A stretch of DNA of 63,994 nt, filler included, from Jimgerdemannia flammicorona (lineage: Eukaryota), in the NCBI GenBank assembly GCA_003990765.1. It is 3 parts of 3 records of this genome, joined end to end, with 100 filler letters (N's around TTAATTAATTAA, not from the genome) between each part and the next. Parts side by side here need not be neighbours in the genome. Positions count along the whole stretch, not along the records: positions 43,146 to 63,994 come from RBNJ01001579.1; 2 more parts are not named here. One strand, written 5' to 3'. Positions 10,327-63,584 of this stretch are shown in pieces. Positions within the stretch are counted from its first letter, which is position 1. Every line of letters begins with the position of its first letter. Under the pieces are notes generated by a model. That model saw only the letters and a program-made list of their open reading frames with translations. It did not search any database and was not told where the DNA came from. A program made the position numbers and the translations under genes.

Positions 10327-12785
10327 TGTAATATAGTAGACACTTAATCCTTAAAGTACATCAGATTTCTGTATCTTGAAACTTGACTTGTTCTGACTCT
10401 TACAGAGTTCTCAGAGTTGCAGGAGTGGGTGAGTTCAAAGTGTATCTGCCTACAGGCTTACTAGTTCCTTTACTTTCTCTTTGCTTTGAACTATTTTGAT
10501 CTGAGATTTATTCACTCTAAGATGCTGGGTTATTTATACATGTTTTACTAGCTTATAAGGTGGCTAAGTTATGAGTCATTTCACAAGTATTGAATCTTTT
10601 AACATCTGCTAGGATTGTGCTGATTGCAAATATTCTAATATCTTCTAAATCTTTACAAATATTAAAGTTTCTGCACTTTGTAGAATATAACTGCTATTTA
10701 TAAGACTAAGCTATTTTGGGAATCAGATTCAGGTACTGCAATCAAATGTCTAATTTTCCTGTTTCATGTTACTAATTTGGATCAGCTGTCACATCTTCCT
10801 TCTGAATAGGTGATTTGTCTCTGGAGTATCCTATTCACTTGAATTCCCAGGCTTCTATAATTTGTATTTCCTTGTACTGCATAATTTGTATCATTATGTT
10901 CTTCTAATGTTATCTCTTAATATATCCAAAGTCTTCTGGGGTTACTTCTCAGAAATGGACTAAGACTGACTCGTTATTCTTGAATAACTTGTGCACTCTT
11001 TTTGTGATTGTAATTTGAGCATAGGAGAGCTGACATTCCTTGATCCAGTCTTCTTTTCCCATCTTCAGTTTGGAATTCAGTAGCTGTCCCAACTTAAAGT
11101 ATTCCTGGAACTCAGTTCAGTTCTAGTAGGTCTTGAAATATAAGATTCATAATAGGTGTGTTTGCACTATACTCTGGATACTGTCAAAGGATTTCTCCAT
11201 TATTGGTGGCTTGGTAGAACACCACTGTCTTTCTATGACTCCTGAACAGTATTAGTAATCTTGAGGGCAGTAGCATTTCTTTGTTGACTAATCATAATAC
11301 TTCTTGAGTTAGTTTCAGTGAATAGTAGTGGGGATGATTGTGCCTGAGAGTTTTCATAGCCAAAAGGTGGTCTCTTTTATATCTTGCACAAGGTAAGGTT
11401 CTTCTTACTTAGGCTCCAGTTTTCATGACCATGAAGCTTCTACTATATTCTGATATACCAGGACTTTGTCTCCTATCTTGATAATCTCTAGGGGCTTGTG
11501 AATCTTTTCTGTATTATTTCACTATAGTATCTGCACCTTATTTATGTAATCCTCAGCCTTCTTCCTGATTTGGTGTAGTTTCCATATCTCTATGTCCATG
11601 CATTTCTATACAGTATCTCTATTGGACAATAGAATTTCTTGAGAACTTTTTTCTTCAAATAGCATTTCTTGAGAGGTAAAGTGGGTGCTTTGTGATTGGA
11701 TATCCTGAAGAGCAGATAATGCTATTAGCAGATAGTGATCTCAGTTTTTATAGTTATTGTAAATCTTTGTAATAACATTCTTGAGGGTCTTGTTAGTTCT
11801 TTCTACTTATCCATTTCCTTCAGGGTAATAGGCTGTGGTCTGAATATACTGGATCTTATACTTCTTATAGAGAACCTTGAAGAACTGATTCATAAATTCT
11901 GTCCCTCTGTCTGTGGTTACTTGCATTTGGGTCTTGAATTGGCAGATGATTTCTTTGTAAAAGAAATCAGCAATTAACTATGTATTGGTTTCTTTGAGAG
12001 GTCCTGCCTCTATCCATTTTGTGAAGAGGTCTACAATGATAATAATATATTGATTGCCAGTTAGGGTCAAGGGTAGAGAGCTAATTATATCTATTGCAAT
12101 ATGGGTAAATGGTACTAGTTCTATATATACTGATCCTAGGGCTTGATTTTATTAGTCTTGTTTTTATTTCTGGCATTTGTCACAGGTCTTGACAAATTTT
12201 CTGATATCTTTCTCTATTTCTGGCCACCATATTGTTCTTCTTGCTTTAACATATATATTGATTCCTCCTAAATAGCCAAGTTCATATACTGATTTCATTG
12301 CTTGCTCTATCTTATGTTCTGATATAACTAGTAGTTTTCCATTCTTCAGTATTTCTCTATTGGTTTTGAATTGTTTCTATGTTCTGTTGATAATCATTTG
12401 TGTCCATTCTTCCAGATATTGGGGTATCTTTTACTGTCCCAGGTATGTGATAATTCCATAGTAAAGCTCCTTATTCATTATTAGTTTGTTGGTTGAGGAT
12501 CCTTTGGGGTGTCTATAAGAGGGTATCTGTATTGGCATTGGTTCTTCCTGGACAGTGCATGATGGTTATATCATAGGCTTACAACTTCATGATCTATCTA
12601 GTATAGATTTCCTTGGGTTGTCTAGTGGTCAGTAACCAGGTAAGAGTTGAGTGATCTGTTTGAATAGTAAAGTGTCTTTTGGCCAGATAGTAGTAGAACT
12701 TTTCTACAGCCCAGATAACTGTGAGACACTCCAACTTGTATGATTCATATTCTTTTTCAGCTCCTCAGGTTCCTTGGCTGAGGTA
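10327..12785 (-). mobile_element. 3' part of a Ty3/Gypsy element: RNase H, integrase, accessory ORF remnant, PPT, 467-bp 3' LTR (10327-10793)
   Basis: RNase H 'YESYKLECLTVIWAVEKF..IQTDHS'; integrase 'QYWWPE..C..CQ', 'HIAIDII', 'YRPQPI'. PPT AGAAGGAAGA abuts the LTR, which reads TGTGACA...ATTACA on the minus strand. Confidence 0.8.
10840..11160 (-). pseudogene. Decayed accessory ORF between integrase and 3' LTR, apparent distant homolog of ORF 61159-61986
   Basis: Reads 'TEFQEYFKLGQLL...ITKRVHKLFKNNESVLVHF*EVTPEDF'. The KR-to-DF block aligns without gaps to 'AKKIHQIFRHAPWSIPNLEYVRVSDF'. Confidence 0.55.
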
Positions 12786-13334: not shown

Positions 13335-15239
13335 TATGATATATACCAAGAGGCCTTTAGGTTGAGGAAGCGCTTGCTTGAAAATAGTTGTAGTAGCAGT
13401 ACCTTATCTTTTAAAGGTCTTTCTGGTTTGCTCTATCTTTTAAGAGTCTTATTCTTTGCTGTGCACAGACTGAATTTGTCTTAGAATTTAGGTTCAATGG
13501 GTTTACTAAGTCTTTGGGGATTTATATATCAGTCTCAGTTCTGGCAGAAGATAGCTAAGCTTCTGGAGTTTAGTTAGAAACACTAGAGTCACTTAGGTAT
13601 CATTACTAAGACTCAGGGGAATATGTGTGTGTAGGGGGGACTTGATTCTTGTATCAAGGACTGAACTAAAACTGCTTTATTTTGGATAGAAACTGGAGGA
13701 TATTTATATAAATTGGTCTATAATTTCTGACTAAGTATGAGTGACTAATTTGATAACTATAGTGAGGTTTGTGATCATGACCTTTGTTAGGTAGTTTGTG
13801 GCAAAAACAACTCTATGATCAGGACCTCAATTATCAGCTGCTGTGGTAATAGTTGCTATGGTGCCAATTGTCAGAGATAAGCTAGATATCATTTTTTGTA
13901 TTGTTTTCTATATTGTTCATTTATCATTCATAATATTATATGTTGTGCTTGATCATATGACATCATTGCCAGGTCAAATAATTACTCATCTTATCATGTC
14001 TCATTCTATTACATCCTTCTCTCCTTAGAAATCAATGTCCTCATTGATTCAGAAATTGAGAACCAGGGGAGAAAAAGGTAGAGAATCTTCCTCAGTATTG
14101 TTGCCTTCTTCTTCAGTAACAGAGGGAGCAGTTGCTGATAGCTTGGTGTCCAGAATGGTGAAGTCAATGAGGTCTGCAAAAGGTTCTTGCATTGGTATGG
14201 GCATTGGAGTAGGGGTTCTCTATCTAATATAGTTGGGACCATTCAAGTAAAGTTCTTAATCCTCATACCTAGGAATATCCATTTGAATGAGTGGTTCTTC
14301 AAAGAGGTCAGAGAGGCCTTGGAGCCATTGGTCTGAGTTGTCATTCAGAAGGATACTCTAGTGGAGTTCACAGTCAGTAGACTTGAGAGTGATCCAGAAG
14401 TTAACTTCTTAGACTACCTTAATCTCAAGCTCATCAACCTCAGGAAAGAAGAGGTTCTGGAAGTCCTTCAGTTGGATATAGTTGAGGTTGGGAATGGTAA
14501 AAGGTATATGGCATATGATTTGGTAGACCTTCTTAGCTAGTCTTTGCTCATGCCTATCTAGGAGAGTCCAGTCTGAGACTTGATCAGTAGGTAGGTCCTT
14601 TGTATTTTGGAGGAGTTGATGGCTGATTTTATATTTATGCCAGATCTCTAGGTGGCTAGTAGCAAGGTAGGCCCTTTTGATGAATTCATGGTAGTCAAGG
14701 ATATACTGTCCAAAGTTCTTGCTAGAGAGGTTAAGGGCCTCAGAGCAGTGGTTCCTTCCTTGAATAGTAATCTGGATGTGTCCAAAGAGGTGGTCAATCT
14801 GGCTTGGGAGAGACTGACTATAGCAGGCAGTTTGGTGGTAGGTGGCAGGTATTCTTGTCTTGTCTTTTCTTTGTGAGGAGGGGGGATAGAGGTGGTGGCA
14901 TACTCTTTGCCTTGGGTATTTATACTTATTTGCCTGCCTGGTGTGACTTTTAATCTGATCACACTTTTCTACAGAATGTGTGACCTGTTGCTGTAAGCAG
15001 AACATATGCTAGTTATATGAGGAAATCCAGATTTCAAAGATATTGCCACTTGTAGTAGATTGGAATTCTGATATAAGGTAGTAAAAAAGAACTTTGTTAG
15101 ATAGGGAGATAGAGAGACTGCTTGGTTTGAGAGAAGTAATATAGACCTGAATAAAAGTCTGTAGTTGTTAGCTATTACTATTGTTTAGTAGTTAGAACTG
15201 TTTAAGTAGAATAGATAAATAGAATTCTTAGGTATAATA
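13335..15239 (-). mobile_element. Decayed long LTR-like unit carrying an accessory ORF (boundaries approximate)
   Basis: Same order as solo LTR 60921-62435: ORF homolog, then TTTATATAAATA (about 13700-13712, minus), then AATAAA about 25 nt downstream. No TSD could be fixed. Confidence 0.55.
14049..14760 (-). pseudogene. Decayed homolog of the LTR-encoded ORF 61159-61986
   Basis: Shared blocks: AKKVYQIICHIPFTIPNLNYIQLKDF / AKKIHQIFRHAPWSIPNLEYVRVSDF; ITLKS / ITLNS; DNSDQWLQGL / DNPDQFLQGL; FADLIDF / FADLISF; C-terminal PLVLNF / PMILNF. In-frame TAA/TAG stops present. Confidence 0.85.
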
Positions 15240-26619: not shown

Positions 26620-27030
26620 TATCTGAACTTCCAAATCCTTTTGCTTGTCTTGTTCCTTCAGTCAATTTGGAGACTTCTTGTAATTGTAGAGTCCTGACCT
26701 TTATAAAGACTGCTTGGGCAATCTTCTGTCCTCTAATAATTTGGTGCTATTCTGTACTACTGTTATGTAGAATGACCTTGATTTCACCTATATATCCTAG
26801 GTCAATAGTTTCTCCTTCTATGGTTATTCCTTGTCTGGCAAGTCCTGACCTTGAGATCAGTTGGATGTAAGCTCTATGGGGTAGCTGTATAGCTAATCCA
26901 GTTCTGATCATGAAGATTTTTCCAGGCTTAATAGATCTATCCTCCAGACTGTGAAGATCATATTCTATATCCTCTGGGTGGGCTTTGGTCAGGGGTTTGG
27001 CTTTGGGATGCAGCAGAGTATACTGGGCAA
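26620..27030 (-). pseudogene. dUTPase domain in Gypsy pol (between protease region and RT)
   Basis: 'EYDLHS...RTGLAIQLP...ISRSGLARQGI...TIDLGYIGEIKVILHN...IAQ...KGFGSS' covers dUTPase motifs 1-5. Confidence 0.9.
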
Positions 27031-34747: not shown

Positions 34748-34859
34748 ATATATATAGTACTAGAATCTATTGGCCATATATCATTATCATTAGCTATATT
34801 AGTATATACTTCACTTATATTGATATTATCATTTTTTACTAGCTTAAAAATATATAGTA

Positions 34860-43014: not shown

Positions 43015-43020
<6 letters not shown>
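39169..43020 (-). mobile_element. Second, more decayed L1-clade copy, 3'-truncated at the Copia insertion
   Basis: APE start 'NSTTRILSLNIN' near 41600, 'LGGDFN' near 41200, RT 'VPQRDLLSLILYTLSLEPLLDRIR' near 39600; collinear with 15610-21475. Confidence 0.85.
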
Positions 43021-43045
<25 letters not shown>

Positions 43046-43145: not shown

Positions 43146-44229
43146 CGCGCCCGTGTATGCTAATTCTCAATGGATATACATAATTTGTCGTTTCCATTGA
43201 CAGCTGGAAAGCAGGCAAAGTTTAAACCACATCGACGAGCTCCGCTTTACCGCCACCGCGGCTATGTACTGTTTTTGAAACCTCTACTGGTGCTAGCACA
43301 ATCTTTTTGCCGACCTTCCAGCCGCGCGTCTCTAATGAAAAGCATCAACCTTTTTTAAATACATAAATTGGTGACTTGGACTATTTTGAAGTAAAGGTAT
43401 TCACCACACACATATGTGCAATATGGAGTTCGATATGATGCATGTCTATGTGGGGCAGTTCAAATGTCGTTCCGGGTCAGGACCTACCTTGTGAATAGCT
43501 ACATTGAACGAATGCTGAACCTCAATTAATGGAGGTGTGATTTTTGACCTGCCTAGTGTGATAGTACCATCCATACAAAGCTTGAATATTTTGACTACCA
43601 GCACGATCCGAATGGTAGTCCGCTAAGAAAAATAAATTCCTACTTTACGATGCAAGTCGGGAAAGGCTCTGCGTGCAGCCAACTTTCAAAAATCACGGTT
43701 GGCTTTCGAGGACGTTCGGGCCCGCTATCTCGGTCGTATTGTCGCCCGGTCGTTCCGCTTGTACGTAATTCGTATGCTACAATTAGACATAGACGAACCG
43801 AATGCTTCAGATCGCTGTCGCGAAAACGGATGAAATCGTTTGGCAGAATTTGAGACACTCCAAGCTTACTCTGTGTGACACAGACTGACGTGACGAGCGG
43901 AAGATCCTTCCCCTATGTCCATTTCATACATTTCGGCTTAAACCAGTAGTACACGAATAACAATAATTCGATGACTACGTCACACCGAACTTGCAGTATC
44001 TAAAACGCTAAAAGTAGACAAAAGAAACCAAATAGTAACAGAAGTAAAAAAAAAAAGACTAGATCCCCTATTGTATCTTACAATCAGAGGTTAACAAATT
44101 ATTTTGTTTGCATTGACCTACTAAATTAGTTTTATTTTATTTTATTTTATTTTATTTTTATATTTTTTATGGAGATAAAATACTGAACCAACAAGAGCTA
44201 GCTTTCAGGTGAGCACAATCTTCTCGCAC

Positions 44230-44265
<36 letters not shown>

Positions 44266-44590
44266 TTTAAAATAGTTCACATTTCCGCGATTCACTCTGG
44301 GTCACCACGTAGTGGTAGATCAAACGCAAACGCGCGAATTCAATGCATCAGCATCTGTCCAGTTCAAGATTGCAAATAACTCCAACGTTTCATGTCCTCA
44401 TATTGGTTCCTTACCTACTTATGGTAATTTACGTTCCGCAACAAAACCCGTTCCCAATCTAATTTACCGATGAGTATAAATCCCAGCCGAAGCCCACACA
44501 ATGCCCAGTTCCAAATATCACCATACCAAAATACGAAATATAAAGCTCCAGGGTTATTGGGTTTATTTGAGAGATCATGATCAAAAGAGT

Positions 44591-45843: not shown

Positions 45844-46602
45844 TTGTACAAGAGCAACCTGTCAGGTAATTTCCAAAGTGAAAGAGGAAGTGCCCAAGCG
45901 GTGCAAATGGGTGCATTTTTTTAATGGGACTCGCCCTTAAGGCCATCGGTGATTGGCTAGTCGCTTCCAAAACAATTTTGGGGGTGCCTTTGGGGCCCAA
46001 GATCCGAGGCCACGGCTCATTAATGGATGCATCCACATCCAGATCCAATCATCCGACACGTCATCACTTTCACACATTTTCATCAAATTTTACATTTTTA
46101 TTTTCGCATCGCACGTACATGTATGGCTGCAAGCAGTCGAACGAGGGGCACACCGAATTAGTCTGTATTTTGACGAAAGGATAAAGTGAAACAGGTAGGT
46201 TGTGATAAACGCCGGCGGAGAGGGCAGATTTCGGGAGGAAGAGAGGTGGAGATACGAGTAAGTAAAAATATCCGCAATAGAATGCACACAATGGTTACTG
46301 CTCAGCTTATCCCAATGGTGGCAATGCCGTAGCAATAAAAATATCAGATTATGGTGTTCCACAGTTATGTGATTCGGTCAATGTAGATAAGGTTGTGTGG
46401 TTTAATCATCATTTGTTGCCAGGAGTGAGAAGATGTCGAAGGAAGTTGCGTTTTCAGGCTTTTCCGGGTATTATCATAATCCAAGCCAAAGTGTGGGCTC
46501 TGGATGGCACTCCCGGATTGATATTTTCCCAAAAACGAACCAGCGTTTCCAGAGAGATCCCAATTTCCTTCTCACCAACAATACCGACCCGGCAGTAGGG
46601 AA

Positions 46603-46640
<38 letters not shown>

Positions 46641-46641
46641 A

Positions 46642-47838
46642 TTACGCACTCTTCTTCTTCGAGACACCGACGGTACGTCCCTTCCTACCGGTGGTCTTGG
46701 TGTGTTGTCCGCGTACACGCAGACCCCAATAATGACGGAGACCACGGTGAGCGCGGATCTTCTTGAGACGCTCCAAGTCCTCACGGAACTTATTGTCGAG
46801 ACCGTTCGCCAGGACCTGCGAGTACTTGCCATCGATGATGTCCTTCTGCCTGTTGAGGAACCAGTTGGGAATCTTGTACTGCGTTGGGTTCTGGATGATC
46901 GTCACGAGACGCTCGAGTTCTTCGGTCGTAAGCTCACCGGCCCTGAATAACCGAATTTAAGATATATGTTAGGGTCGTTTGGAATGGAACAAACGTATTC
47001 AATTGGAGGGAGGATCAGGTGCAGTGCCGCCCGGTGGAAATCGCGTTCGAATGATTTCAATTGCCCAATCCACCGCGCGGCGCGAGCGCTTGGTAGTCGA
47101 GCGAGTGAGACACGCGCAACCAATTGATCCTGAAATACTGTCTTTCTGAGGTGATAACAGCCCACCCGGTAACAACAACACAGTGATACTATCGGAAACA
47201 TACCTCTTGTTGAGATCGATATCAGCCTTTTTGATGACCAGGTTAGAGTACCTGCGACCCACACCCTTGATGTTGGTCAGGGCGAACATGATCTTGGTCT
47301 TGCCATCAACGTTTGTGTTGAGGAGACGGAGAATGTGTTGGAATTGGCTCTTGTCCGGAACGACGAGCGACTAGGTAAAAGAAACAACAAAGTTTGGGCA
47401 ACACGTTGGTCAATCACGGCTGCTGAACTATTTTGCCTGATTGTTCCAACCGTTAAACTGATACCATGTCTAAGATATTCTCCACGTCGTGCCAAGATCG
47501 CAAGCTCGGTATGACGAATGGGAGAGTGTTGCCTGTTTACCAAAGCGTCTCACCATGTGTTCTCATCTTAGGTCTGACACCACCAAATACCAGCCAATTT
47601 ACCCATCTATATCCATCCATCGTAATACTTCCAGAGGCCCCGCCACCGATCCATCCGTCCACCATAATATCCAGCGCCTTCGGAGGCATCCATCCATAGT
47701 GGCCTCACTTCCCTCCACCATCCATCCAAAGTTACGCCGAGGACCATCGGAACAGAAGGGGGTGGGGGAAGAGGTGTGGAGTGGAGAGGTATACACGACG
47801 GTGCTGTGGTCTCATAAAGGATGACAGAAACGTACCAT
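46642..47838 (-). CDS. RPS18: 40S ribosomal protein S18 (uS13); exons ATG 47838-47836, 47370-47204, 46942-46642
   Basis: '[14 protein letters not shown]', '[12 protein letters not shown]', '[22 protein letters not shown]'. ATG|GTACGT follows a pyrimidine-rich leader; an alternative ATG|GTGAGA exists at 47556. Confidence 0.96.
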
Positions 47839-48044: not shown

Positions 48045-52020
<3,976 letters not shown>

Positions 52021-53215: not shown

Positions 53216-54547
53216 TCAGCCGTAAATCTTCATCACGTCAAAAACCTCCTGCCGACACAGCGGGCATTTCTCTTTGCTTCGCATATTCCTCCCGCCGTCA
53301 GCAGGAGTGTGGGTAAAGTTCGCCGAACATTCGATACACACGCAATAATGTCCGCACGGTACGAACGCCATCTCCCTGCTATTAGTCATGCACACCACGC
53401 AGTTGACGGCAGCCTCCTTCGCCTCGTCCCCTTTGGTCGAAGAGGCGTTTCGCCGAGCCATGTACTTGGCCGACATCACTTCGCATAGTCCGTGGACATA
53501 CCACAAGGCTCGGATCGTCCAGCACGCCCCAGTCATAATGGCGAAGGCGCACGTCACGTTGCCGATGACACACCGGTAGTAGACGTTATTGGGGTCGTTG
53601 GAAGCGCTGTGTCGGGAGCACGGCTGGAATGTGTCGTCGCTCAGAATATTGTAAGTGATGACAAAGGTCCAGAAGAATGTCATGGCGACGGCGACGTAAC
53701 GTTCGCAATACATGCCCTCACTTCCGTAACGACACGTCGCGAAGATTAGCCACAAGCTCACGACAACGGAAACCACGCCGGCGCACAGCCAGAGGATGTA
53801 GGGTGCATGAGGAGGTGAGTCCCGCAAGGACGCGATGCCGGTCGTTTCCAGACTCTGTTGTTGCAGTAGGACGATGGTTCCTGTGTGCGATGCCAGCACT
53901 GAACACGCACCAAGAAACTGCAGTAAACGCAACAGAGACGCGTAGCGTGTCGGTCGTTGGCTAGTCCGCATCGAAACCTCGGAATCAAACTCGAGCTTGG
54001 CGAGCCGAGCATCTATCCACAAAGCGCACAAAAACCACCACACAATTGCGCCCAAGCCAAAGGCACGCGTCGCAATCTGCGCGGGGCAGATGTGGAGACC
54101 AAAGTCGATTATGGTGCTTTTTGTGCCATTTATGTTGTTTGTATTGTTTAATTGTTGCTGTTGCGATAGCGTTGACGCGGCACTGCACGTCTGAAATCCC
54201 CCTTCAGATGCCATCAAGTAAACGACCGTGGCAGTCCAGATTATTGTCATGACAATGGCCAAATACTTGTTAGCACTGAAGCCCTTGTTATATGCGCAGA
54301 AGGATGAGGACAGAATGAGGAACAGACTGATAACCGTAGAGATGGCGCTAACGGAGAATACGAAAAAATAGGCTGTGCCTTGACGGACGGAGTCTCCACC
54401 CGTTATTGCGTCGAGATCATCCTGTAGGATGACGGCGGCGGAAAAGGATGCGAGAGTGCCAGCAGCACAGAACAGCTGGATTAGGCGAAATTGGAAGAGG
54501 GTAGCGCGAGGGCCACAGTCGCATAGAAAGCAAAACAAGTAACGCAT
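53216..54547 (-). CDS. Intronless multi-pass membrane protein: two MARVEL-like repeats + C-terminal RING-HC finger (putative E3 ligase)
   Basis: 443-aa ORF with normal CpG content; RING 'CVVC...PCGHYCVCIEC...CPLCR'; internal duplication 'FRLIQLFCAAGTLAS' / 'LRLLQFLGACSVLAS'. Confidence 0.85.
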   Translation of the reverse strand: MRYLFCFLCDCGPRATLFQFRLIQLFCAAGTLASFSAAVILQDDLDAITGGDSVRQGTAYFFVFSVSAISTVISLFLILSSSFCAYNKGFSANKYLAIVMTIIWTATVVYLMASEGGFQTCSAASTLSQQQQLNNTNNINGTKSTIIDFGLHICPAQIATRAFGLGAIVWWFLCALWIDARLAKLEFDSEVSMRTSQRPTRYASLLRLLQFLGACSVLASHTGTIVLLQQQSLETTGIASLRDSPPHAPYILWLCAGVVSVVVSLWLIFATCRYGSEGMYCERYVAVAMTFFWTFVITYNILSDDTFQPCSRHSASNDPNNVYYRCVIGNVTCAFAIMTGACWTIRALWYVHGLCEVMSAKYMARRNASSTKGDEAKEAAVNCVVCMTNSREMAFVPCGHYCVCIECSANFTHTPADGGRNMRSKEKCPLCRQEVFDVMKIYG

Positions 54548-55035: not shown

Positions 55036-57939
55036 TATAAATATCTAGAGATTGTATATAATATTGATATCTCTATTCTAGACTATTGTACAGTTTTATA
55101 GCTAAATATAGTATACAAAATATTATCATTATTATAGATATACTCTAGTATTATATTTTTACAATAAGAGTATATATATTTATAATAATTAAAACTCAAA
55201 TATATTAATAAATATAAAATAGTAGAGATGATTATTATACTATAGTTATAATGGTTCTAGTTTCTTTAAGAGAAAGTGGCTTAATATAGAAGTTTTAGTT
55301 AGCCTAAAGTAGCTCAAAGAGATACTTAAAGATTTAAGTGTTCTTAAAGAATTTCTGAGAGAAAATATTCTGAGCTTTATTTAGGTAGAGAATAAGGATA
55401 TTTATATATGATCTAAAAGAGAGATTCAAAAGGATCTTGAAAAGAAAGAAAAATGCCAAGAAATAGGTTTTCAGCAAAGTTGACTAATACTATTTTACAA
55501 TGTTCTAAAAGATTTTATAACTAGCTAAGATAAGATACTTGGCACTAAGGAAAGGTAAGAATATTCTAGTAGTATCTGGGTGCCAAGAGAAGGTTTCTAA
55601 GCAAGTAGAAGGTGGTGGAACATAGTAGAATATTTAAGAAATAATAAGAAAAGACTAACTAAAAGATGTGAAAATATACTAAGACTAAATATAACTGTAA
55701 AATTATTACATCTCTCTCTCCTTAAGAATCAATATTCTCATTAAGTTCTCAGATAACATAAGACTAGATATACTTAACCAAAATTTCTCAGTATATTGGT
55801 GGGGATTGGTCATCCTCATACGTATAAGGCAGAGGGTCTATTATCAGACTAACTAACTAAGAGAGATTCAAATCTAGCTAGTAGCTTCATTTTAGTAGAC
55901 TTTTTATTTATTAAATATTCTACTAGTTCTGAGGTCCCAAAGTAAACTTCCAATGTATAAGACACTGGTCATTACTATAGGTCATTGACAATCCAAGAAA
56001 GTTACTATAGAGATTAGACAATATGTTTTATCTCAAAGTCTTGAGAGTTCTTGAGGTTGATCAGTAGTTCCCAGATAGTATCATATTCAGAGTAGCCCAT
56101 CTACTTGACTAGGTATTCAGAATAGTAATAGTAGATTCATTTGTCAAGAATTTTCTCAGCTTCATACTCAATATGATCTTCAATAATCATAGGGGTAGAC
56201 AGCTTAGGAATTTAACCAGGGTAGAGTAGTGACTGGTTCCAGATCTTGAGGTATAATATATGAAAGACTGGATGTACTCTCATAGTTTCAGGTAGCTTGA
56301 GGTAGTAGGAGGATGTAGAGACTTGTTCAGTGATCTTGAAAGGTCCAATATATTTGGGTTGAAACTTGTTCAAAGGATAGTTAACTTGAGATTATATTTT
56401 GAGGTTCTTGGTAGACAGTAGGACTTAATCTCAAATAGTATAAGTGACATTGTGGTGTTTCTTGTTAGCATACTTGGCTTGATACTGTTGAGCCTTCTGA
56501 AGATTTATAGTGATAATCTTGAGTAGTTTGTCCATTTTTTCTATAAGGCTCTTAGTAGTAGAGACTTGTATTTAACTACTTTTCTTGAAAGAGAATAGAC
56601 TTATAGGGGTCTCAAGATCTTGACCATAGAGTAACTGGAAAGAAAAAAGACCAGTAGATGATTGGATAGCATTATTATATACAAACTCTATATAAGTCAG
56701 ATAGTGGTCCCAATCATCTTACTTATAAGAAATATAGTTTCTAAGCATTTGTTCTAGAGTTTTGTTCATGTGCTCAGTTTGTCCATCAGTTTGTGGGTAA
56801 AAGGTAATAGATAGCCAATTGGGTTCTTAGGGTCTTGAAGAGAGTTTGTCAGAAGTAACTGGTAAACTTGGGGTCATGATCACTAACAATTACTCACAGT
56901 AGGCCATAGTAATAGAAGATAGACTTGAAGAAGATTCTTGCAATCTTAGATATAGTAGCATTAGTAGTAATTGATTCAACAATCATAGTCTTGATCAGGT
57001 GATCAATAAATATGATAATAGTATCAGTACCAGATTGAGTTCATGGTAGTTGAGTTATAAAGTATATAGTAACTTGCTCAAATTTCTTGGTGAGAATTGG
57101 CAGTAGTTATAGCAAACTGACAGGTGCTTGATTGGTAGACTTATTGTGCTGGTATAGATTATAGCTAGTAATATAATTCTTAATTTCCTTGACCATACTT
57201 GGCTAATAGTAGTAGTATTGGATATTCTTGATAGTTTTTTCAATTTCCAGATATGTAACTAGTGAGAGAAGAGTCATGGTATTCTTGCAAAATCTTATAG
57301 TATAGATTTATGTTTTCAGATAGATAGACTTAGTCTTGATGATAGATCAGGTTATTCTTGACAGTATATATATCCTTGAGCTCATTCAAGAAAACTCTAG
57401 TGGTAATTGTATCTTCTTTGTAAGCTTGTTTGATTTGGTCTAAAAATTCTGATGCTAAGGTGATTTATATGATTGTGGTAAGATCAGGATATCTTAATAA
57501 GACATCTGGTACTACAAGTGTCTTACCAGACTTATAGATGATCATTAGGTTAAAGATTTGAAGCTTGAGGCTCTACTTGGCTTATAGATATAACAGAGTA
57601 GGTTGAGTGTTGATATATTTGAGAAATTGATGATCAGTAATGACATCAAACTCAATACCTTCTAGATAGTATTACTAGTGATCTAGTCCATATATTATTA
57701 TCAGTAGTTCCTTCTCATGAGTGGCTAGCTTTTGTTTAACCAGGGCTAACTTGTAAGACTCAAAAGCAATAAGACAGTGTCCTTTGCCATCATCTTGTAA
57801 CAGAACTGCTCCAATGGCAAAATTCAACATATCAGTGGTAACTATGAATTTTAGACCTTGATCTGCATTATATAGGACTGAAGCATAGGTCAGGTAGTTC
57901 TTGAGTTCTTGAAAGACTTGTTGATAAAAGAGGTCTCAG

Positions 57940-58046
57940 ACCCCCTAGGGGAATTGGATAGGAGTGGGCACTGTGTATTATATAGAGGATAGAAGAATAT
58001 ATAGGATTAATAAAGAAATGAGTCTAAGAGATTATAAAAAAAAAAA
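57940..58046 (+). mobile_element. 5'-truncated LINE insertion with poly(A) tail and TSD
   Basis: LINE 3' end with AATAAA and poly(A); flanked by AAAAGAGGTC(T/C)CAG at 57926-57939 and 58043-58056. Confidence 0.85.
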
Positions 58047-58238
58047 GAGGTCCCAGGTGTAGGATACATAGTGGTCTGAGTGTGGGGCTTTCCTCATAAG
58101 GTTAGTTAGTGGCTTGGTAATGCCAGAGAAGTTTCTGACAAAGTAGTAATAGTAGCCAGCTAGACCAAGGAAGAATCAGAGTTCTGTAAGGTTTAATAGA
58201 ATGGGCCATTCTTTAATTACTTCTATCTTGTATGGGTC

Positions 58239-58622
58239 TAGTGCTCCCAACGAATCGAATTGAATTGAATTTGGCCCAAACTCGATTTGATTCAATCAAA
58301 TCAAGGGTCCAATTCAATTTGATTTGAACCTTAATTTTCAAAATATAATAACTTGACAAAAACTCATCCAAATTTAACCTATTTTAGCTTGTTAGATTCA
58401 CCGTATTAATGTGATTCTAACAAGCTAAAGTACATTAGATTTGGATGAGTTTACGCTGAGTTATTGCATTTTGAAAATTAGGGTTCAAATTAGACCCTCA
58501 ATTCGATTTGACTTTTGATTTGATTTGAATTGATTCAAATTGAAAAATCCCCAATTCAATTCAACTCATTTAACTCTCAATTCAATTCAATTCGAATTGA
58601 TTCGACTCATTTGGGAGCACTA
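58239..58622. mobile_element. Non-autonomous hAT-type element (MITE)
   Basis: Perfect 12-bp TIR TAGTGCTCCCAA / TTGGGAGCACTA; perfect 8-bp TSD TATGGGTC; subterminal TYGAA/TTCRA pentamer arrays. Confidence 0.93.
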
Positions 58623-59909
58623 TATGGGTCTACTTGAATTCCTTGTATAGAGACAATGTGGCCAAGATATTTGACTTGTTTCTTGAAGAATTCACACTTC
58701 TTGAGCTTAGCATAAAGCTTGTATTTTTACAAAATCTCCAGGACTATTCAAATATATTTGAGGTATTCTTCTTTAGTTGTATTAAAGATCAGGATATCAT
58801 CAAGATATATCAACAGAAAAATAAATAGTTGGTCTTTGAATATCTTATTCATCAGAGTCTGGAATATAGCAGGTATATTGGTGAGACTAAATACTAAGAC
58901 CAAGAATTCATAGAGTCCATAAGTGGTCATGAATGTAGTCTTGGAAATATCTTCTAACTTGATTCAAATCTAGTAGTATCCTAATATGAGGTCCAACTTG
59001 GTAAAGTACTTGGTATTCTTGAGAATATTAAATATTTAATCAATCAAAGGTAACAGATAGTAGTTCTTAACAGTAAGCTTGTTGAGTGTATAATAGTCTA
59101 TATATATTTATAGAGTATCATTCTTCTTTTTGACAAATAAGACTGGTGAGCTATAAGGAGATTTGCTTAGCTGAATGGCTCCTCATATAAGTAGTTCTTT
59201 TAGTTCCTTTTTAACTGCTTCAATTTCAAGTGGTAACATATAATATATATATTTCTTAGATAGTACAGCTCCTGAGATTAGTTTAATTTCATGATCAACT
59301 TTCCATATAGGCAGTAGGTCAGGTAGTTTGTCTGAAAAGACATCCTTGAATTCTTCTAGCAGTAACTTAATACTTTTATTGACTGATAGTCTCTTGTCTT
59401 ATTTCTTAGGATGGACTATTATAATAAAGGCATGCATTGCCTTCTTAAGTGCTCTCTTATACTATATAGCTGACAGTATTGCAATCTGGGTCTTACTTGT
59501 GGTCTTGTCTATCTTGATAGTAATGTTGGCTCTATCTTGAAGTAAGGTAACTTTATTCTTGCACCAATCAATGTCTGGGTTGTATTTTATAAGCCAGAGT
59601 TTTCTTAAGATTAGGTTATAATCTCCTATTAGTACAACCTCAAAGTCTACTTATTCCTAATATTTCTGAATCTTAATGAGTAGTTTGGTGGCAATTGACT
59701 TGATAGAGTACAGAGTACCATCTGCAGTAACTATATTATTATTCTTGAGTATAGGCTAGATAAGGATCTTGAGGCTTTTAATGAGGTTCTGATTGATGAA
59801 GATTTCTATAGCTCTACTGTCTATGAGTACTTAAACTTCTTTTTCTTTGACTAAGCTTTTAAAAATGAGCATAGCTTAAGCTCAGTTTTTAGTAAGACTT
59901 ACTGCTTGA

Positions 59910-60320
59910 TTGGTACTACTAAAATCTTTTTGGTCCCATTTGGTTTCAGGGAGTTCTTGGACTTCTGTAATCTTGAGTTGACTGGTTTTTTCTAGGATCA
60001 TTTACACAACTTGGTCTCCTTTCTTGACTGTATAGTCTTGATTCTTCTGGTTAATAAGCAGAACTTGGACTTGTCCTTGAAAGTCTAAGTCAATGACACC
60101 AACATCTATATCTAAATGATGTTTGACACTGAGTCCTGATTATAGTGCAATTCTGATATAATATCCTTCAGAACATTGAACTGCAACTTCAGTAGATATC
60201 AGAGTTCAGCTCTTAGCTAGAATGGTAACTTGTTTGATAGAGTATAGGTCAAGACCAATGACTCCTTCTATTTGATATTGAGGGACCTGGGTTTTTGGAT
60301 GAAGTTTCTTGATCTTGAGC
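59910..60320 (-). pseudogene. dUTPase domain of the chromovirus (between gag and protease)
   Basis: 'KLHPKTQVP...GLDLYS...*SGLSVKHH...GVIDLDFQGQVQVLLIN...KKGDQV'; the protease 'VLIDS' follows at about 59830. Confidence 0.85.
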
Positions 60321-61158
60321 TCAGATTGACTGATAGTGAGATTGATAGATATGTCCTTAGACAATATGGTAACTGGTCTTAAGGGTTCACTAGTCTTCTT
60401 AGGATATTTGGTTACAATATATTCTATTTGGTAATAGAAGAAATAGGCTTCAGATTTCTTCAGATAGTCCTTTTCTTCAGAAGTGAGCTTAGTATTCTTT
60501 TTGTTTATAGTATCTAAGTCTATTGATACTGGACCAACTATTCTTGGTTAGTTCTTATAGTGGTTCTCGAAGTGGTTCTTCTTATAGTATTCTGGTTTGA
60601 AGTAGTTATCAAAGATGATGACATCAAACCTATCAGTGATTCTCATGACTTCATCAAGGTTTTTGAGCTCTTCTAGCTCAACTTTGACTTATGTATTTCT
60701 CTTCAGATTTTGGATATAGTGGTCTATCTTTTCATCCTCAGATATTGCTGATAGCTTGAGTAAGATTAATAAGAATTGTATATTATAGCTTTATACAGAC
60801 TTGAGTTGCTTGATGTTTACTAACTTGTCTCTGGCTAGCTTGATAGCATTAGCAGGCTTGAACTGTCTATAAAGGGCTCTCTTGAAAGCTTCTCAGTCTC
60901 TAATTCATGTATATGAGTATTGTAACAGTGACCCCAGAATGATGACATCAGCACAGGAGACAGCCTTTCTTTACAAGCCACCAGATCAGAGTACAAGAAG
61001 ATTATACAGCATATGAGATGAGCAATGATGACCAACTGTGAGTCATTGTGACCACAGCACAAGTATCCTGAAGAATATAAAAGAAGGATCAAGGAACTGC
61101 AGTAGCAGCAACAAGAACCACCAATCCCAAAATAGCTCAAAGACTTACCACAAACAAA

Positions 61159-61986
61159 ATGCCTGCTGCCTGCCAAACCTCAAGGTCAAGGAATCATCAA
61201 GGTATCTTGGTTGAGGAAAGAATGTTCCAAGACATCAGAAGAGCCATGAGGACCCACTCAAGAAGGACTCCTAGCATCAACCTGGGTACTGCAGACTCTT
61301 ATCACTTTATCCTCTATCACCATGAAATGGAAACAAGAATCACCATTGCCACCGAATGCCTCCAAATGTGGCAGGAGTATGAAATAGGAAACCTCCTCTG
61401 CCAGGAGTTCCCACAGACCAGCCCTCAAGAGCTACAAGATACCACCCCCATGGACCTACGTGAGGCAAGAACAGCAAAGAAGATCCATCAGATCTTCAGG
61501 CATGCACCATGGTCAATCCCCAACTTGGAGTATGTTAGAGTCTCAGACTTCAGAGACCTGTCATCCTGCTGTATCAATGCACTAGAAGCCAGGGTAGCTA
61601 CAGAAGCCCAGTCCACCATCACCCTCAACAGCAAAGAAGTAGAAGACTTCTGGCACCCTATCCTTCAGGACAACCCAGACCAATTCCTGCAAGGATTGAT
61701 CTCAGTATTCCAAGGCCCAAGCATCCGGGTTAGATCTCCCCAAGACCCCACATTTGTCTCCTATTTTGTGGAAGAGAACCTCATAGACTGGAGAGCTCCA
61801 GACCTTGTTCCCGATTTCCCCGCCACAGCTGAACATGATGACGTCATCGATGACGTCATCTCGCATGACATACCCGAAGTACGTGAAACACGCGACCTAT
61901 ATGACGAATTCGCGGACCTCATCTCCTTCAGTGATGATGATGATGATGATGATGAAGCTCCCATGATCCTAAACTTTCTGCTCTAA
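61159..61986 (+). CDS. LTR-encoded protein of unknown function with acidic C-terminus
   Basis: Open 275-aa frame inside otherwise stop-ridden TE DNA; protein-level similarity to 14049-14760 despite diverged DNA. Confidence 0.75.
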   Translation: MPAACQTSRSRNHQGILVEERMFQDIRRAMRTHSRRTPSINLGTADSYHFILYHHEMETRITIATECLQMWQEYEIGNLLCQEFPQTSPQELQDTTPMDLREARTAKKIHQIFRHAPWSIPNLEYVRVSDFRDLSSCCINALEARVATEAQSTITLNSKEVEDFWHPILQDNPDQFLQGLISVFQGPSIRVRSPQDPTFVSYFVEENLIDWRAPDLVPDFPATAEHDDVIDDVISHDIPEVRETRDLYDEFADLISFSDDDDDDDEAPMILNFLL

Positions 61987-62005
61987 AGTTCTTTGTTACA
62001 CTAGA

Positions 62006-62126
62006 TAATGCCAGCACTGGTATTCTCATGTAACACTGGATAATACCAGCACCAGTATTCTGAGGTGACGCAAAATTATTCCAGCACTGGTATTTTGATG
62101 TGGTACTAAATAATGCCAGCCCTGGA
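62006..62126 (+). repeat. Four 35-bp tandem units with palindromic core, upstream of the LTR TATA box
   Basis: CCAGC at 62011, 62046, 62081 and 62116; core AATGCCAG-CA-CTGGTATT. Confidence 0.8.
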
Positions 62127-62650
62127 ACTTAGTAGTTTTAGTTATTGGAATTTATATTTAGCTTTATATCTTAGCAACCATTGAATTATATTTTATATAA
62201 ATACTTCTCTTATTTCCTCTAAAATAAAGTCAATCTTTCTCAGTGCAATACATACACTTCCTTGCAAGCAATCTAAGAGATAACAAGATAGTTATAGATA
62301 AGAAGTTTGAGGACTATAAGACCTTGGGAAGGCACTCCAATAAGAACTTGCTTATAACAAACTTGAGTTAGTCTAAGAGATACACCTTGAAGAGAATCTG
62401 GCGTATTTAAAGGACTCAGCGACCACTATGTGACAGTATATAGATATAGTCATAATATAATTATACTACCAGATAGCTATATTTCCTCAGAGAAGTATAG
62501 TGGCAAATTGGACTTGCATGTCTTCTTCCATTCTTATGAGTTTGAAGTATTAGTCCAACTAGAAGGTTCATACATCTGTAGATAGTCTTTCTGATAACTA
62601 TCAAAGGTATTGCAGGTAGTGATGGTGAATGACAAAGTAGTCTTTCATTA

Positions 62651-62783
62651 AGAGAGAGTAGGGGAGAGAGCCTAGAAAGATCAGGTAGGGGTGGGCACAG
62701 TATATTATATAGAGGATAGATAGTATATTAATAAAGAAAGGAGTCTAAGTAACTATAAAAAAAAAAAAAAAAAAAAAAAAAAA
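62651..62783 (+). mobile_element. Short LINE 3' fragment with poly(A)
   Basis: AATAAAGAAAGGAGTCTAAGTAACTA + poly(A), sharing the GGAGTCTAAGTAACTA terminus of the long LINE; no clear TSD. Confidence 0.8.
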
Positions 62784-63584
62784 CTATTAAAGATATCTAA
62801 CTTGAGTAGCTTGAAACTAATTAGTACTATAGTAGAATATAATATACTCACAGTTCTTATTTTCTGCTATTCTAGTTGTACTTGAAGTTCTTGGATTTGA
62901 TGGGTTATAGTAGTGATTATATCTTCTATACCAACTTATAGTCTTTTTGCTTCTTCTGTAGCAGAGGGATCTGACTGGTAGGCTGACTCTTTATGGCTCA
63001 TTTTAGATTTGTATAACTAGTTGTAACTGTTTTTTGAATTTATGTGAGGTTTCTTAATAAGACAAGGTATAATGATACCACTGCTATCAAGTATATATAA
63101 TAGTTCTAGTTAGCCTAAAGTAACTTGAAGAGATACATAAAGGTTCAAGTATTCTCAAAGAATTTCTGGGAGAAAATATTCTGAGCTTTATTCAAGTAGA
63201 GAACAAGGATATTTATATATAATCTGAAAGAGAGATCCAGAAGGATCTTGGAAAGAAAGAGAAATACCAAGAAATAAGTTTTCAGTAAAGCTGACTAATA
63301 CTGTTCTATAATATTCTAAAAGGTTCTATATATGATTAGCTAAAATAAGATACTTGGCACTAAGGAAAGGTAAGAATGTTTTAGTGATATCTGAGTACTA
63401 AGAAAAGGTTTCTAAACAAGTAGAAGATAGCAGAACATAGTAGAATATTCAAGAAATAATAAGAAAAACAAGACTAAATATGACTGTAAAATTATTATAA
63501 TAGTATATATAATAATATATATATAAGATATCTACTATCTTATCTCTTATTATTAGTAAGAATGATATATGTATTACTAAAGTC

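What the first reader, a model, noticed from the sequence alone, without database searches (positions are those of the whole stretch)
60921..62435. Unrecognised accessory protein family of fungal Gypsy elements, intact inside an LTR
Seen: a TG...CA, TSD-flanked solo LTR carries an open 275-aa ORF in sense orientation upstream of its tandem repeats, TATA box and AATAAA, so in U3. A clear decayed homolog lies on another contig (14049-14760, similar through to the C-terminal P(L/M)(V/I)LNF). A more distant one lies at 10840-11160. Shared core: (Y/F)x(I/L)(G/S)xxL...K(K/R)(I/V)(H/Y)x(I/L)...DF. Knowledge: standard Gypsy elements encode only gag and pol (sometimes env); U3-encoded proteins are known from retroviruses (MMTV Sag, HIV Nef). 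Inference: protein conservation across diverged DNA implies selection. There is no obvious signal peptide or TM segment, so it is not env-like. A helical core plus acidic tail would fit a transactivator or anti-silencing factor in a genome that heavily mutates its repeats.
Basis: partly seen in the sequence, partly recalled or inferred. Interest (0 to 1): 0.82.

Follow-up and report, generated by a model that had tools for sequence, protein, structure and literature searches.

The report
Protein gene carried inside a retrotransposon LTR
A 1.5-kb long terminal repeat left behind by a Gypsy-type retrotransposon carries its own small protein-coding gene of an unknown, evolutionarily conserved family, an arrangement otherwise known mainly from a few retroviruses.

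Summary
60921-62435 is a repeat unit with TG..CA ends and a 4-bp duplication (GTAT). Public contigs show a precise empty site, a purine tract before its start and a TGG-type primer site after its end. Its ends and TATA/AATAAA core match the 3' LTR of a decayed Gypsy-type element in the same window. It was not seen as a pair around gag-pol.

The 275-aa ORF (61159-61986) lies upstream of the LTR's core promoter, so in U3. It has its own conserved TATA box and leader.

The family is real and small: about 18 database proteins, two metagenome loci and a decayed copy at 14049-14852 (-), in 4-5 subfamilies down to about 30% identity. It has no Pfam, PDB or fold match. Between subfamilies pN/pS is 0.13-0.32, and DNA similarity is confined to the ORF.

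The third proposed copy (about 10.9-11.2 kb) is only weakly supported, and it lies before the purine tract, not in an LTR.

Function is inferred only. A basic N-terminus, helical core and acidic tail suggest a nuclear regulator of the element. "Fungal" was not tested and no RNA evidence was obtained. Verdict: new variant of a known kind (accessory ORFs of LTR elements), interest about 0.6.

The parts
60917..60920 (.). left copy of the 4-bp target-site duplication GTAT
   Evidence: the empty-site joint skips 1519 = 1515 + 4
60921..62435 (+). solo LTR, 1515 bp, TG..CA; nested in the internal part of an older element (E3)
   Evidence: depth step at both ends; PPT-like loose end before 60921; PBS-like loose end behind 62435; termini and core homologous to the E1 3' LTR
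61039..61045 (+). TGAGTCA, an AP-1/Gcn4-type site 31 nt upstream of TATA1 (motif identity recalled, not tested)
61076..61081 (+). TATA1, the ORF's own TATA box, 78-83 nt upstream of the ATG
   Evidence: TATAAA invariant in 4 of 4 aligned copies
61143..61158 (+). conserved leader ACTTACCACAAACAAA directly before the ATG
   Evidence: near-identical in window, L001 and L002
61159..61986 (+). 275-aa accessory ORF (stop included)
61839..61858 (+). two TGACGTCA palindromes (CRE-type, motif identity recalled) inside the ORF, encoding DDVIDDVI
   Evidence: TGACATCA repeats at the same place in L002
61994..62125 (+). 35-nt tandem repeat, 3.8 copies, between the ORF stop and TATA2
62194..62203 (+). TATA2 (TATATAAATA), core promoter shared with ORF-less relatives
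   Evidence: TATAAATA invariant in 4 of 4 LTRs
62223..62228 (+). AATAAA, the only one in the unit
62436..62439 (.). right copy of the target-site duplication GTAT
14049..14852 (-). decayed homolog (subfamily B): ATA for ATG, 4 in-frame stops, ends PLVLNF*. Has its own TATAAA at 14924->14919, and TATATAAATA at 13710->13701 with AATAAA at 13681->13676 downstream
11822..12316 (-). integrase of decayed Gypsy-type element E1 (Integrase_H2C2 12316->12158, rve 12109->11822)
10931..11185 (-). candidate distant relative of the ORF, between the E1 integrase and the purine tract (weak)
10327..10803 (-). E1 purine tract AGAAGGAAGA (10803->10794) and 467-bp ORF-less 3' LTR (10793->10327, TGTGACAG...TATTACA)
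55284..63512 (-). older element E3 that hosts the solo LTR: LTR pair 55284-55694 / 63095-63512 (84% identical), RNase H at 57678-57935

Best explanation
60921-62435 is a solo LTR of a Ty3/Gypsy-lineage retrotransposon. Its U3 region holds a self-contained accessory gene.

The proposed layout is as follows. A dedicated TATA box (61076) and a conserved leader precede a 275-codon ORF. Next come 35-nt repeats, the LTR's ordinary core promoter (TATA2, 62194) and its single AATAAA (62223). A transcript started at TATA1 would contain that AATAAA and could end inside the same LTR, giving an mRNA of about 1.1 kb. The genomic RNA started at TATA2 would begin at or after the AATAAA. If so, every LTR, 5', 3' or solo, is an expression unit for the protein.

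Shown here: the LTR anatomy, the placement of the ORF, the conservation of TATA1 and the leader, the existence of the family and purifying selection on it.

Inferred, not shown: transcription from TATA1, and the function. The protein has a basic N-terminus (pI 11.8, residues 1-45), a helical core and a very acidic tail with embedded F/L/I residues (21 D+E in the last 60). It has no TM segment. My best guess, at about 0.3, is a nuclear trans-acting regulator that raises the element's own expression. A role against host silencing is next, at about 0.2.

This particular copy is open but carries CpG-decay missense changes, so it may no longer be functional.
For: LTR status:
- TG..CA ends and a GTAT duplication.
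- Contig depth steps up and down at 60921 and 62435 in 3 of 4 runs.
- A joint 60915->62435 skips 1519 = LTR + one duplication copy (X17, 1 contig).
- Loose ends behind 62435 read ACTTGGTGCCCATTGG in X1 (4) and X2 (1). Loose ends before 60921 read ...TATTCAGGAGGAAGA in X2 (3). Other loose ends show unrelated flanks.

Gypsy link:
- In E1 the integrase (H2C2 + rve) is followed by ...TATTCAGAAGGAAGA|TGTGACAG and a 467-bp LTR.
- That LTR's start, TATAAATA-N-AATAAA core and last ~50 nt align with the unit.

U3 placement: TATAAATA is invariant in 4 of 4 LTRs, including the ORF-less E1 LTR, and the ORF lies upstream of it.

Own promoter: TATAAA is invariant in 4 of 4 copies, 72-83 nt before the start codon in the two window copies, and the leader is conserved.

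Family:
- 5 hits among 515 candidates.
- 5 hits in 1.84 billion representatives.
- 9 hits among 3034 candidates with a profile.
- Clusters of 2, 6, 1 and 2 members.
- 2 loci.
- Full-length members start with MP(A/P).

Selection:
- pS 0.67-0.80 against pN 0.27-0.49; dN/dS 0.13-0.32 in the 5 of 6 pairs where dS could be computed.
- blastn similarity of the unit to L001 and L002 covers only the leader and ORF.
- Among listed indels, 3 of 4 in the ORF are multiples of 3, against 1 of 9 in the non-coding LTR (Fisher p 0.052).

Protein features.
Against: - The unit was never seen as a pair around gag-pol. No genome is held and both fetched loci are short contigs.
- The tRNA for the PBS-like motif was not identified, and the window has no tRNA gene.
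- No run on record as RNA holds the stretch, so transcription and use of TATA1 are unproven.
- Within subfamily A, the listed differences in the ORF are 13 synonymous and 14 non-synonymous (binomial p 0.07 against about 0.33 synonymous). This is near neutral, as expected for decaying copies, but it gives no support for selection on present copies.
- dS is saturated, so the ratios are rough.
- Structure models are poor (pLDDT 53.5 and 60.3) and no fold match was found, so the function rests on composition alone.
- The CRE-type palindromes and repeats inside and after the ORF show that part of the conservation could be on DNA signals.
Confidence: 0.6

Rival explanations
1. The ORF lies in R, not U3. 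TATA1 is the promoter of the genomic RNA, R runs about 1.1 kb to the poly(A) site, and the ORF is the first cistron of the full-length RNA, upstream of the PBS and gag. TATA2 would then be a relic or a second start.
For: TATA1 is as conserved as TATA2 (4 of 4 each). Extra ORFs upstream of gag-pol exist in rice Retrosat2/RIRE3/RIRE8 (ORF0; PMC3485330, passages read).
Against: The TATAAATA-N-AATAAA core is shared with the ORF-less 467-bp E1 LTR, where it must serve as promoter and poly(A) signal. An R of 1.1 kb would place the AATAAA in the 5' copy of every genomic RNA.
Confidence: 0.15
2. The ORF is a captured host gene or gene fragment carried passively in the LTR, with no role for the element.
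For: LTR elements do pick up foreign ORFs (rotifer elements, PMC5408684, abstract start in the listing and one passage). The protein has no retroelement domain.
Against: It is kept with its TATA1 and leader in at least three diverged LTR families, with pN/pS well below 1. No longer or fused form and no host-like homolog were found: 0 of 1204 longer candidates, and only 5 hits in 1.84 billion representatives. DNA conservation between LTR families is confined to it.
Confidence: 0.1
3. The unit is not an LTR but a small independent repeat or multicopy gene whose ends resemble LTR ends.
For: No paired copy is seen in the window. Contigs of relatives are all short except one of 4.8 kb and one of 19.4 kb that could not be fetched.
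Against: The same PBS-like continuation appears in two runs and a PPT-like continuation in one. The termini are homologous to the LTR that follows the integrase and purine tract in E1. There is a 4-bp duplication and an exact empty site.
Confidence: 0.05
4. The ORF is a real LTR gene, but the protein acts on the host rather than the element. For example, it blocks DNA methylation or RNA silencing of repeats, or works as a structural or chaperone cofactor of Gag.
For: Repeats here are strongly CpG-depleted (o/e 0-0.27) against 1.07 in host genes, so the host mutates or methylates repeats. Arc C-lobe (Gag-derived) appears among weak fold rows at Z 3.4-3.6.
Against: No similarity to any known silencing suppressor or Gag. 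All fold rows are below Z 5 and the model is poor.
Confidence: 0.2

Closest known systems
Additional ORFs (aORFs) of LTR retrotransposons: plant elements (review PMC7264820), brtn of Botrytis BcGypsy1 (PMC8365987), rotifer elements (PMC5408684)
   Same: An extra sense ORF of unknown function carried by a Gypsy-type element besides gag-pol; lineage-restricted; no known domain.
   Different: The position classes I recall for those are between the 5' LTR and gag, or between pol and the 3' LTR; only Retrosat2's ORF0 position was read in a call. This ORF is inside the LTR, with its own TATA box, so it is duplicated in each element and survives in solo LTRs. The phrases 'within the LTR', 'in the LTR', 'inside the LTR' and 'LTRs contain' occur 0 times in the plant review. 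No sequence similarity was found.
MMTV superantigen (Sag), encoded in U3 of a retroviral LTR (recalled, not from a call)
   Same: A protein-coding ORF lying within U3 of the LTR, in sense.
   Different: Sag is a type II membrane glycoprotein of a vertebrate retrovirus. This protein has no hydrophobic segment (maximum 19-residue hydropathy 0.48-1.07 in 5 members) and no sequence relation.
Spumavirus Tas/Bet with the internal promoter (recalled, not from a call)
   Same: 3'-terminal accessory gene(s) that reach into U3 and are expressed from a separate promoter upstream of the LTR core promoter. Tas is an acidic-domain transactivator that binds the LTR. This is the nearest working analogy to what is proposed here.
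   Different: Retrovirus, not retrotransposon. The promoter lies in env, not in the LTR. No sequence or fold similarity was found. Activator function is untested here.
ORF0 of rice Retrosat2/RIRE3/RIRE8 (PMC3485330)
   Same: An orphan extra ORF in Gypsy elements with unusually long LTRs. It evolves faster than pol but has Ka below Ks.
   Different: ORF0 lies upstream of gag-pol in the internal region, not inside the LTR (passages read). Unrelated sequence.

Membership tests
LTR of an LTR retrotransposon (here a solo LTR) | TG..CA termini with short inverted ends | tested here: met
   TGTAACAG... ...TGTGACA
LTR of an LTR retrotransposon (here a solo LTR) | target-site duplication and an empty site | tested here: met
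   GTAT on both sides. One contig (X17, 37 letters on the short side, 88% threshold) joins 60915 to 62435 and skips 1519 = 1515 + 4. It probably comes from a paralogous copy of the host element or from a relative.
LTR of an LTR retrotransposon (here a solo LTR) | copies followed by a primer-binding site and preceded by a polypurine tract | tested here: met
   Loose ends ACTTGGTGCCCATTGG behind 62435 (X1: 4, X2: 1) and ...CAGGAGGAAGA before 60921 (X2: 3). The matching tRNA was not identified. No self-priming complement of 8 nt or more lies in the unit.
LTR of an LTR retrotransposon (here a solo LTR) | occurs as a direct pair around gag-pol | not testable with these tools
   No genome is held. 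The window has one copy. The fetched loci are 1.3-1.5 kb contigs.
Ty3/Gypsy (Metaviridae) lineage | pol order PR-RT-RH-IN, with integrase last before the 3' LTR | tested here: inconclusive
   Met for the related element E1: RNase H tail, then H2C2 + rve integrase, purine tract and LTR. Also met for E2 (PR, dUTPase, RT, IN). The unit's own internal region was not seen. The link rests on LTR-end, PPT and core similarity to E1.
Additional ORF (aORF) of an LTR retrotransposon | conserved ORF other than gag/pol carried within the element, under constraint | tested here: met
   No Pfam hit. pN/pS 0.13-0.32 between subfamilies. Found in LTR-type context in the window unit, copy 2, L001 and L002.
U3-encoded retroviral proteins (MMTV Sag type) | ORF located in U3 | tested here: met
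   The ORF lies upstream of the TATAAATA-N-AATAAA core shared with an ORF-less LTR. The transcription start was not mapped.
U3-encoded retroviral proteins (MMTV Sag type) | type II transmembrane glycoprotein | tested here: not met
   Maximum 19-residue Kyte-Doolittle mean is 0.48-1.07 in 5 members; N-termini are polar and basic.
Retroviral transactivator with its own promoter (spumavirus Tas type) | separate promoter for the accessory gene | tested here: inconclusive
   TATAAA invariant in 4 of 4 copies, with a conserved leader. No transcript data.
Retroviral transactivator with its own promoter (spumavirus Tas type) | binds LTR DNA and activates transcription | not testable with these tools
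   Composition only: basic N-terminus, acidic tail. Fold rows with HTH proteins at Z 3.2-4.5 are not significant.

The most novel reading that the evidence does not exclude
A Gypsy-type retrotransposon lineage has turned its LTR into a complete gene: promoter, ORF, and the LTR's own poly(A) signal. Every LTR, including the many solo LTRs left by recombination, could then supply a trans-acting regulatory protein to the family. That protein might be a Tas/Tax-like activator of the LTR or a suppressor of repeat silencing. This would be a retrovirus-style regulatory gene outside the retroviruses. Solo LTRs would be a distributed gene reservoir rather than dead scars.
Probability: 0.3. Interest if true: 0.8.

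Novelty: new variant of a known kind. Interest (0 to 1): 0.62.

Why it matters
Extra genes in LTR retrotransposons are known, but they sit in the internal region and are lost when an element collapses to a solo LTR.

A selected gene inside U3, with its own TATA box and able to use the LTR's poly(A) signal, changes that picture in three ways:
- The gene is present twice per element.
- It persists in solo LTRs.
- It could be expressed independently of gag-pol.

This would put a regulatory layer of the kind thought typical of complex retroviruses (U3-encoded or U3-overlapping proteins, internal promoters) into a simple retrotransposon. It would make testable whether elements in a genome that heavily CpG-mutates its repeats encode a counter-measure or self-activator.

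It also matters for annotation. LTRs are routinely masked as non-coding, so such families stay invisible.

Tried and rejected
- Whole genome: none held, so no genome-wide tBLASTn and no test of paired LTRs.
- Expression: no RNA holder listed. X10 and X17 are only guessed to be RNA, so their cover of the ORF is not used. All run shares were small (0.19 or less), so no habitat is claimed.
- Collection scans: the first metagenome scan gave 243 pattern matches and 0 relatives. The viral-contig scan gave 80 matches and 0 relatives.
- Longer or fused forms: 0 of 1204 candidates.
- Domains and structure: Pfam gave 0 families for the ORF, and 1 of 15 members had a chance hit at E 0.088. The PDB sequence profile gave 0 hits at E up to 10. 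ESM Atlas best score was 0.88, below the 0.9 lead threshold. AlphaFold2 gave pLDDT 53.5 for the whole protein and 60.3 for the core. VIA-align found 0 of 48,161 chains at Z 5 or more. Foldseek against PDB and BFVD found 0 matches at E 0.001 or less.
- The second Atlas call, on the neighbouring RING protein, gave no usable taxon.
- A PBS-like match inside the window (40936-40949, 2 mismatches) has no LTR end beside it, and 24 of 100 shuffles give such a match. Rejected as chance.
- Post-integrase regions of E2 and E3 show no similarity to the family (11-155 of 300 shuffles reach the real score).
- A 122-codon frame open in both E2 LTRs is 72% identical in protein against 84% in DNA, which looks neutral.
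- Earlier findings of this scan: nothing on this genome, sequence or words.
- Literature: searches found no paper describing an ORF inside the LTR of a retrotransposon. The phrase 'ORF within the LTR' with 'retrotransposon' gave 0 papers. This covers the held library only.
Full report
**1. What is in the sequence**

The window is three contigs joined by N runs (1-21475, 21576-43045, 43146-63994). The finding lies in the third.

- The ORF 61159..61986 (+) is open for 275 codons.
- The unit 60921-62435 starts TGTAACAG and ends TGTGACA. It is flanked by GTAT on each side (60917-60920, 62436-62439).
- After the stop codon come 3.8 copies of a 35-nt tandem repeat (61994-62125).
- Then follow TATATAAATA (62194-62203) and the unit's only AATAAA (62223-62228).
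- A second TATAAA lies at 61076-61081, 78-83 nt before the ATG, and a TGAGTCA lies 31 nt before that.

**2. Is it an LTR?**

No genome is held and the window has a single copy. I therefore laid Logan contigs of four public runs on 60400-62900.

- In three of four runs the summed depth jumps by one to two orders of magnitude in the bin that holds 60921, and drops in the bin that holds 62435. In X1 it goes from 23 to 856, and from 2052 to 84. The tool warns that this is not a copy number. I use it only for the boundaries.
- Behind 62435, X1 (4 loose ends) and X2 (1) continue with ACTTGGTGCCCATTGG... This is a TGG-type primer-binding-site motif three bases after the LTR end.
- Before 60921, X2 (3 loose ends) ends in ...TTATTCAGGAGGAAGA, a purine tract.
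- Other loose ends at the same two positions are unrelated sequences (X10, X17), as expected for other insertion sites.
- One X17 contig joins 60915 to 62435, skipping 1519 bases. That is exactly the 1515-bp unit plus one copy of the 4-bp duplication. The contig is about 87% like the flank. It probably comes from a paralogous copy of the host element or from a relative, because the flanks are themselves repeated (see section 3).

**3. The link to Gypsy-type elements comes from the window itself**

On the minus strand of contig 1, read through with X at stops, there is an RNase H tail, then Integrase_H2C2 (E 1.2e-11) and rve (E 7.7e-8). A ~500-nt post-integrase stretch follows, then ...CTATTCAGAAGGAAGA|TGTGACAGCTGATCC, and a 467-bp LTR ending ...CTACTATATTACA (10793->10327). 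I call this element E1.

E1 aligns with the unit and its loose ends in four places:
- its purine tract;
- its LTR start;
- its TATAAATA-N-AATAAA-CTCAG core;
- its last ~50 nt.

The unit is therefore an enlarged relative of the E1 LTR. Its R-U5 part is about 240 nt and comparable to E1's. Its U3 is about 1275 nt instead of about 250.

The solo LTR sits, in opposite orientation, inside an older element E3. E3 has an LTR pair at 55284-55694 and 63095-63512 (84% identical) and RNase H at 57678-57935 (-). Contig 2 holds a further decayed Gypsy-order element, E2. It has PR, dUTPase, RT and IN, with an LTR pair at 21859-23180 and 30743-32030.

For one search I submitted 136 of the 178 stop-to-stop frames of 75 aa or more. 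The 42 left out were mostly overlapping frames in 43.6-54.2 kb, plus frames of the ORF and copy 2 already scanned.

**4. The protein family**

Database searches:
- The single-sequence word search found 5 proteins among 515 candidates (61-89% identity).
- The search for longer forms found 0 of 1204 candidates.
- The exhaustive phmmer run over 1.84 billion representatives found 5 hits, reaching 32-45% identity.
- A profile search found 9 among 3034 candidates.
- Four clusters hold 2, 6, 1 and 2 members.
- The second metagenome scan returned two loci with intact ORFs, L001 (1535 nt) and L002 (1345 nt).

Inside the window, a profile that does not include it scores the minus-strand copy at 14064-14849 at 1.1e-65. 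This copy has ATA for ATG and four in-frame stops, and it ends PLVLNF*.

The members fall into four or five subfamilies. The full-length ones begin with MP(A/P). They share W-x-EYEI, AKK(I/V)HQ(I/V)FRH-P, LE-x-VA, L-x-DNPDQ-LQ, F-(Q/E)-GP-I and, in most, DLI-x-F and P-x-(I/V)-LNF near the C-terminus.

No Pfam family, no PDB sequence relative and no fold match was found. The two AlphaFold2 models are poor (pLDDT 53.5 and 60.3) and show only a helical core. There is no transmembrane segment or signal peptide.

**5. Selection**

Codon comparison of the four DNA copies gives pS 0.67-0.80 against pN 0.27-0.49. dN/dS could be computed for 5 of 6 pairs and lies at 0.13-0.32; for the sixth dS is beyond saturation. 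dS is near saturation throughout, so the ratios are rough, but pN is far below pS.

blastn similarity of the unit to L002 (69%) and L001 (61%) covers only positions 198/220 to 805/951 of the unit. That is the leader and ORF, not the rest of the LTR.

Among the indels and joints listed, 3 of 4 inside the ORF are multiples of three (6, 72, 81; one +1 in a low-depth contig). In the non-coding part of the unit 1 of 9 is (Fisher p 0.052).

Against this, the 27 listed single-letter differences inside the ORF are 13 synonymous and 14 non-synonymous (p 0.07 against about one third synonymous). These 27 come from the 40 rows shown; 177 more rows were not shown. Copies within the young subfamily look close to neutral, as decaying insertions should.

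Differences are almost all transitions (X1: 127 transitions, 4 transversions). CpG o/e is 0.27 in the unit, 0.00 in the copy-2 region, 0.10 in L002, and 1.07 in the neighbouring host genes.

At seven positions where its closest relatives have Arg, the window copy has Cys, His or Gln. For the two adjacent Cys codons most laid contigs also read Arg. "Intact" here means open, not unmutated.

**6. A gene cassette inside U3**

Alignment of the region before the start codon in the window unit, L001, L002 and copy 2 shows TATAAA invariant in 4 of 4. The leader (G)ACTTACCACAAACAAA-ATG-CCTGC is nearly identical in three.

Alignment of the region after the ORF shows TATAAATA invariant in 4 of 4 LTRs, including the ORF-less E1 LTR, followed by AATAAA and CTCAG.

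Hence the ORF lies upstream of the lineage's ordinary core promoter, in U3, and has a promoter-like element of its own. A transcript from TATA1 would include the AATAAA and could be processed within the same LTR. A transcript from TATA2 would start at or beyond it.

This reading is inference from sequence. No RNA holder was listed.

**7. The third copy**

It is therefore not in an LTR.

- Window-wide it is not significant (i-E 2.6 and 4.8; another chance hit scores the same).
- Tested alone it scores 5.1 bits, reached by 1 of 1000 and 1 of 300 shuffles.
- The other two frames, and the equivalent regions of E2 and E3, do not stand out (11-155 of 300).
- The two best family motifs are colinear in it, with nearly the same spacing.

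I rate it as possible (about 0.4). If real, the ORF exists on both sides of a conserved purine-tract/LTR junction in related elements. That implies a move or duplication of the gene into U3, or out of it.

**8. How it probably works**

- Shown: an LTR-borne, selected, orphan protein gene.
- Inferred: independent expression from each LTR.
- Guessed from composition: a nuclear regulatory protein. Residues 1-45 have pI 11.8 with RRAMRT-x-SRR. The core is helical. The last 60 residues hold 21 D+E with embedded F, L and I, which is the pattern of acidic activation domains (my knowledge).

The nearest working analogy is the spumavirus Tas system with its internal promoter, or U3-encoded MMTV Sag for placement only. 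Both are recalled, not from calls. Weak fold rows with helix-turn-helix regulators (Z 3.2-4.5) are below any useful threshold.

**9. Known or new**

Additional ORFs in LTR retrotransposons are well described:
- the plant review PMC7264820 (abstract start in the listing, plus a phrase search);
- Botrytis BcGypsy1 brtn, PMC8365987 (passages);
- rotifers, PMC5408684 (abstract start in the listing and one passage);
- Retrosat2 ORF0 upstream of gag-pol, PMC3485330 (passages).

None of the six literature searches turned up an ORF inside a retrotransposon LTR, within the held library only. I file this as a new variant of a known kind.

Noticed in passing
window 26750-27133 (-): A dUTPase domain (E 7e-14) sits between protease and RT in the decayed Gypsy-order element E2 of contig 2.
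   Followed up: no
window 21859-23180 and 30743-32030 (-): E2's 1.3-kb LTRs carry the TATAAAT-N-GAATAAACCTCAGTC core only about 220 nt from their 5' end, leaving about 1 kb downstream of the poly(A) signal. A 122-codon frame is open in both copies, but protein identity (72%) is below DNA identity (84%), so it looks neutral. A third related LTR piece lies at 33321-34756.
   Followed up: partly
window 61839-61858; L002 749-778: Two perfect TGACGTCA palindromes lie inside the ORF's variable acidic region. L002 has TGACATCA repeats at the same place. These may be enhancer sites overlapping coding sequence.
   Followed up: no
L001 170-202 / 1481-1513; window 13779-13794 / 15089-15104: Short direct repeats flank the ORF at a spacing of 1311 nt in L001 and 1310 nt in the window's copy 2. 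The repeat sequences are unrelated between the two, so the equal spacing may be chance.
   Followed up: partly
window 446-1930 and 1979-3427 (-): Two adjacent large ORFs (494 and 482 aa) have no Pfam match.
   Followed up: no
window 49083-52017 (+), 53216-54547 (-): Host genes: an intron-split XPB/ERCC3-type helicase (Helicase_C_3, ResIII, ERCC3_RAD25_C) and a 443-aa RING-finger protein. Their CpG o/e is 1.07 against 0-0.27 in the repeats.
   Followed up: partly
window 19329-19943 (+) and 39435-40052 (-): An RVT_1-bearing repeat (E 1.8e-15) is shared at 66% identity between contigs 1 and 2. It is possibly a non-LTR element family.
   Followed up: no
window 44227-44280, 46601-46654, 50211-50271, 62747-62809, 43019-43045: Several pure poly(A) tracts of about 25-40 nt are scattered through contig 3 and at the end of contig 2.
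   Followed up: no
window 62436-62449 and 10313-10326 (-): Both the solo LTR and the E1 3' LTR are followed by GTATATA... in AT-rich sequence. This may reflect a target preference for TA-rich sites.
   Followed up: no
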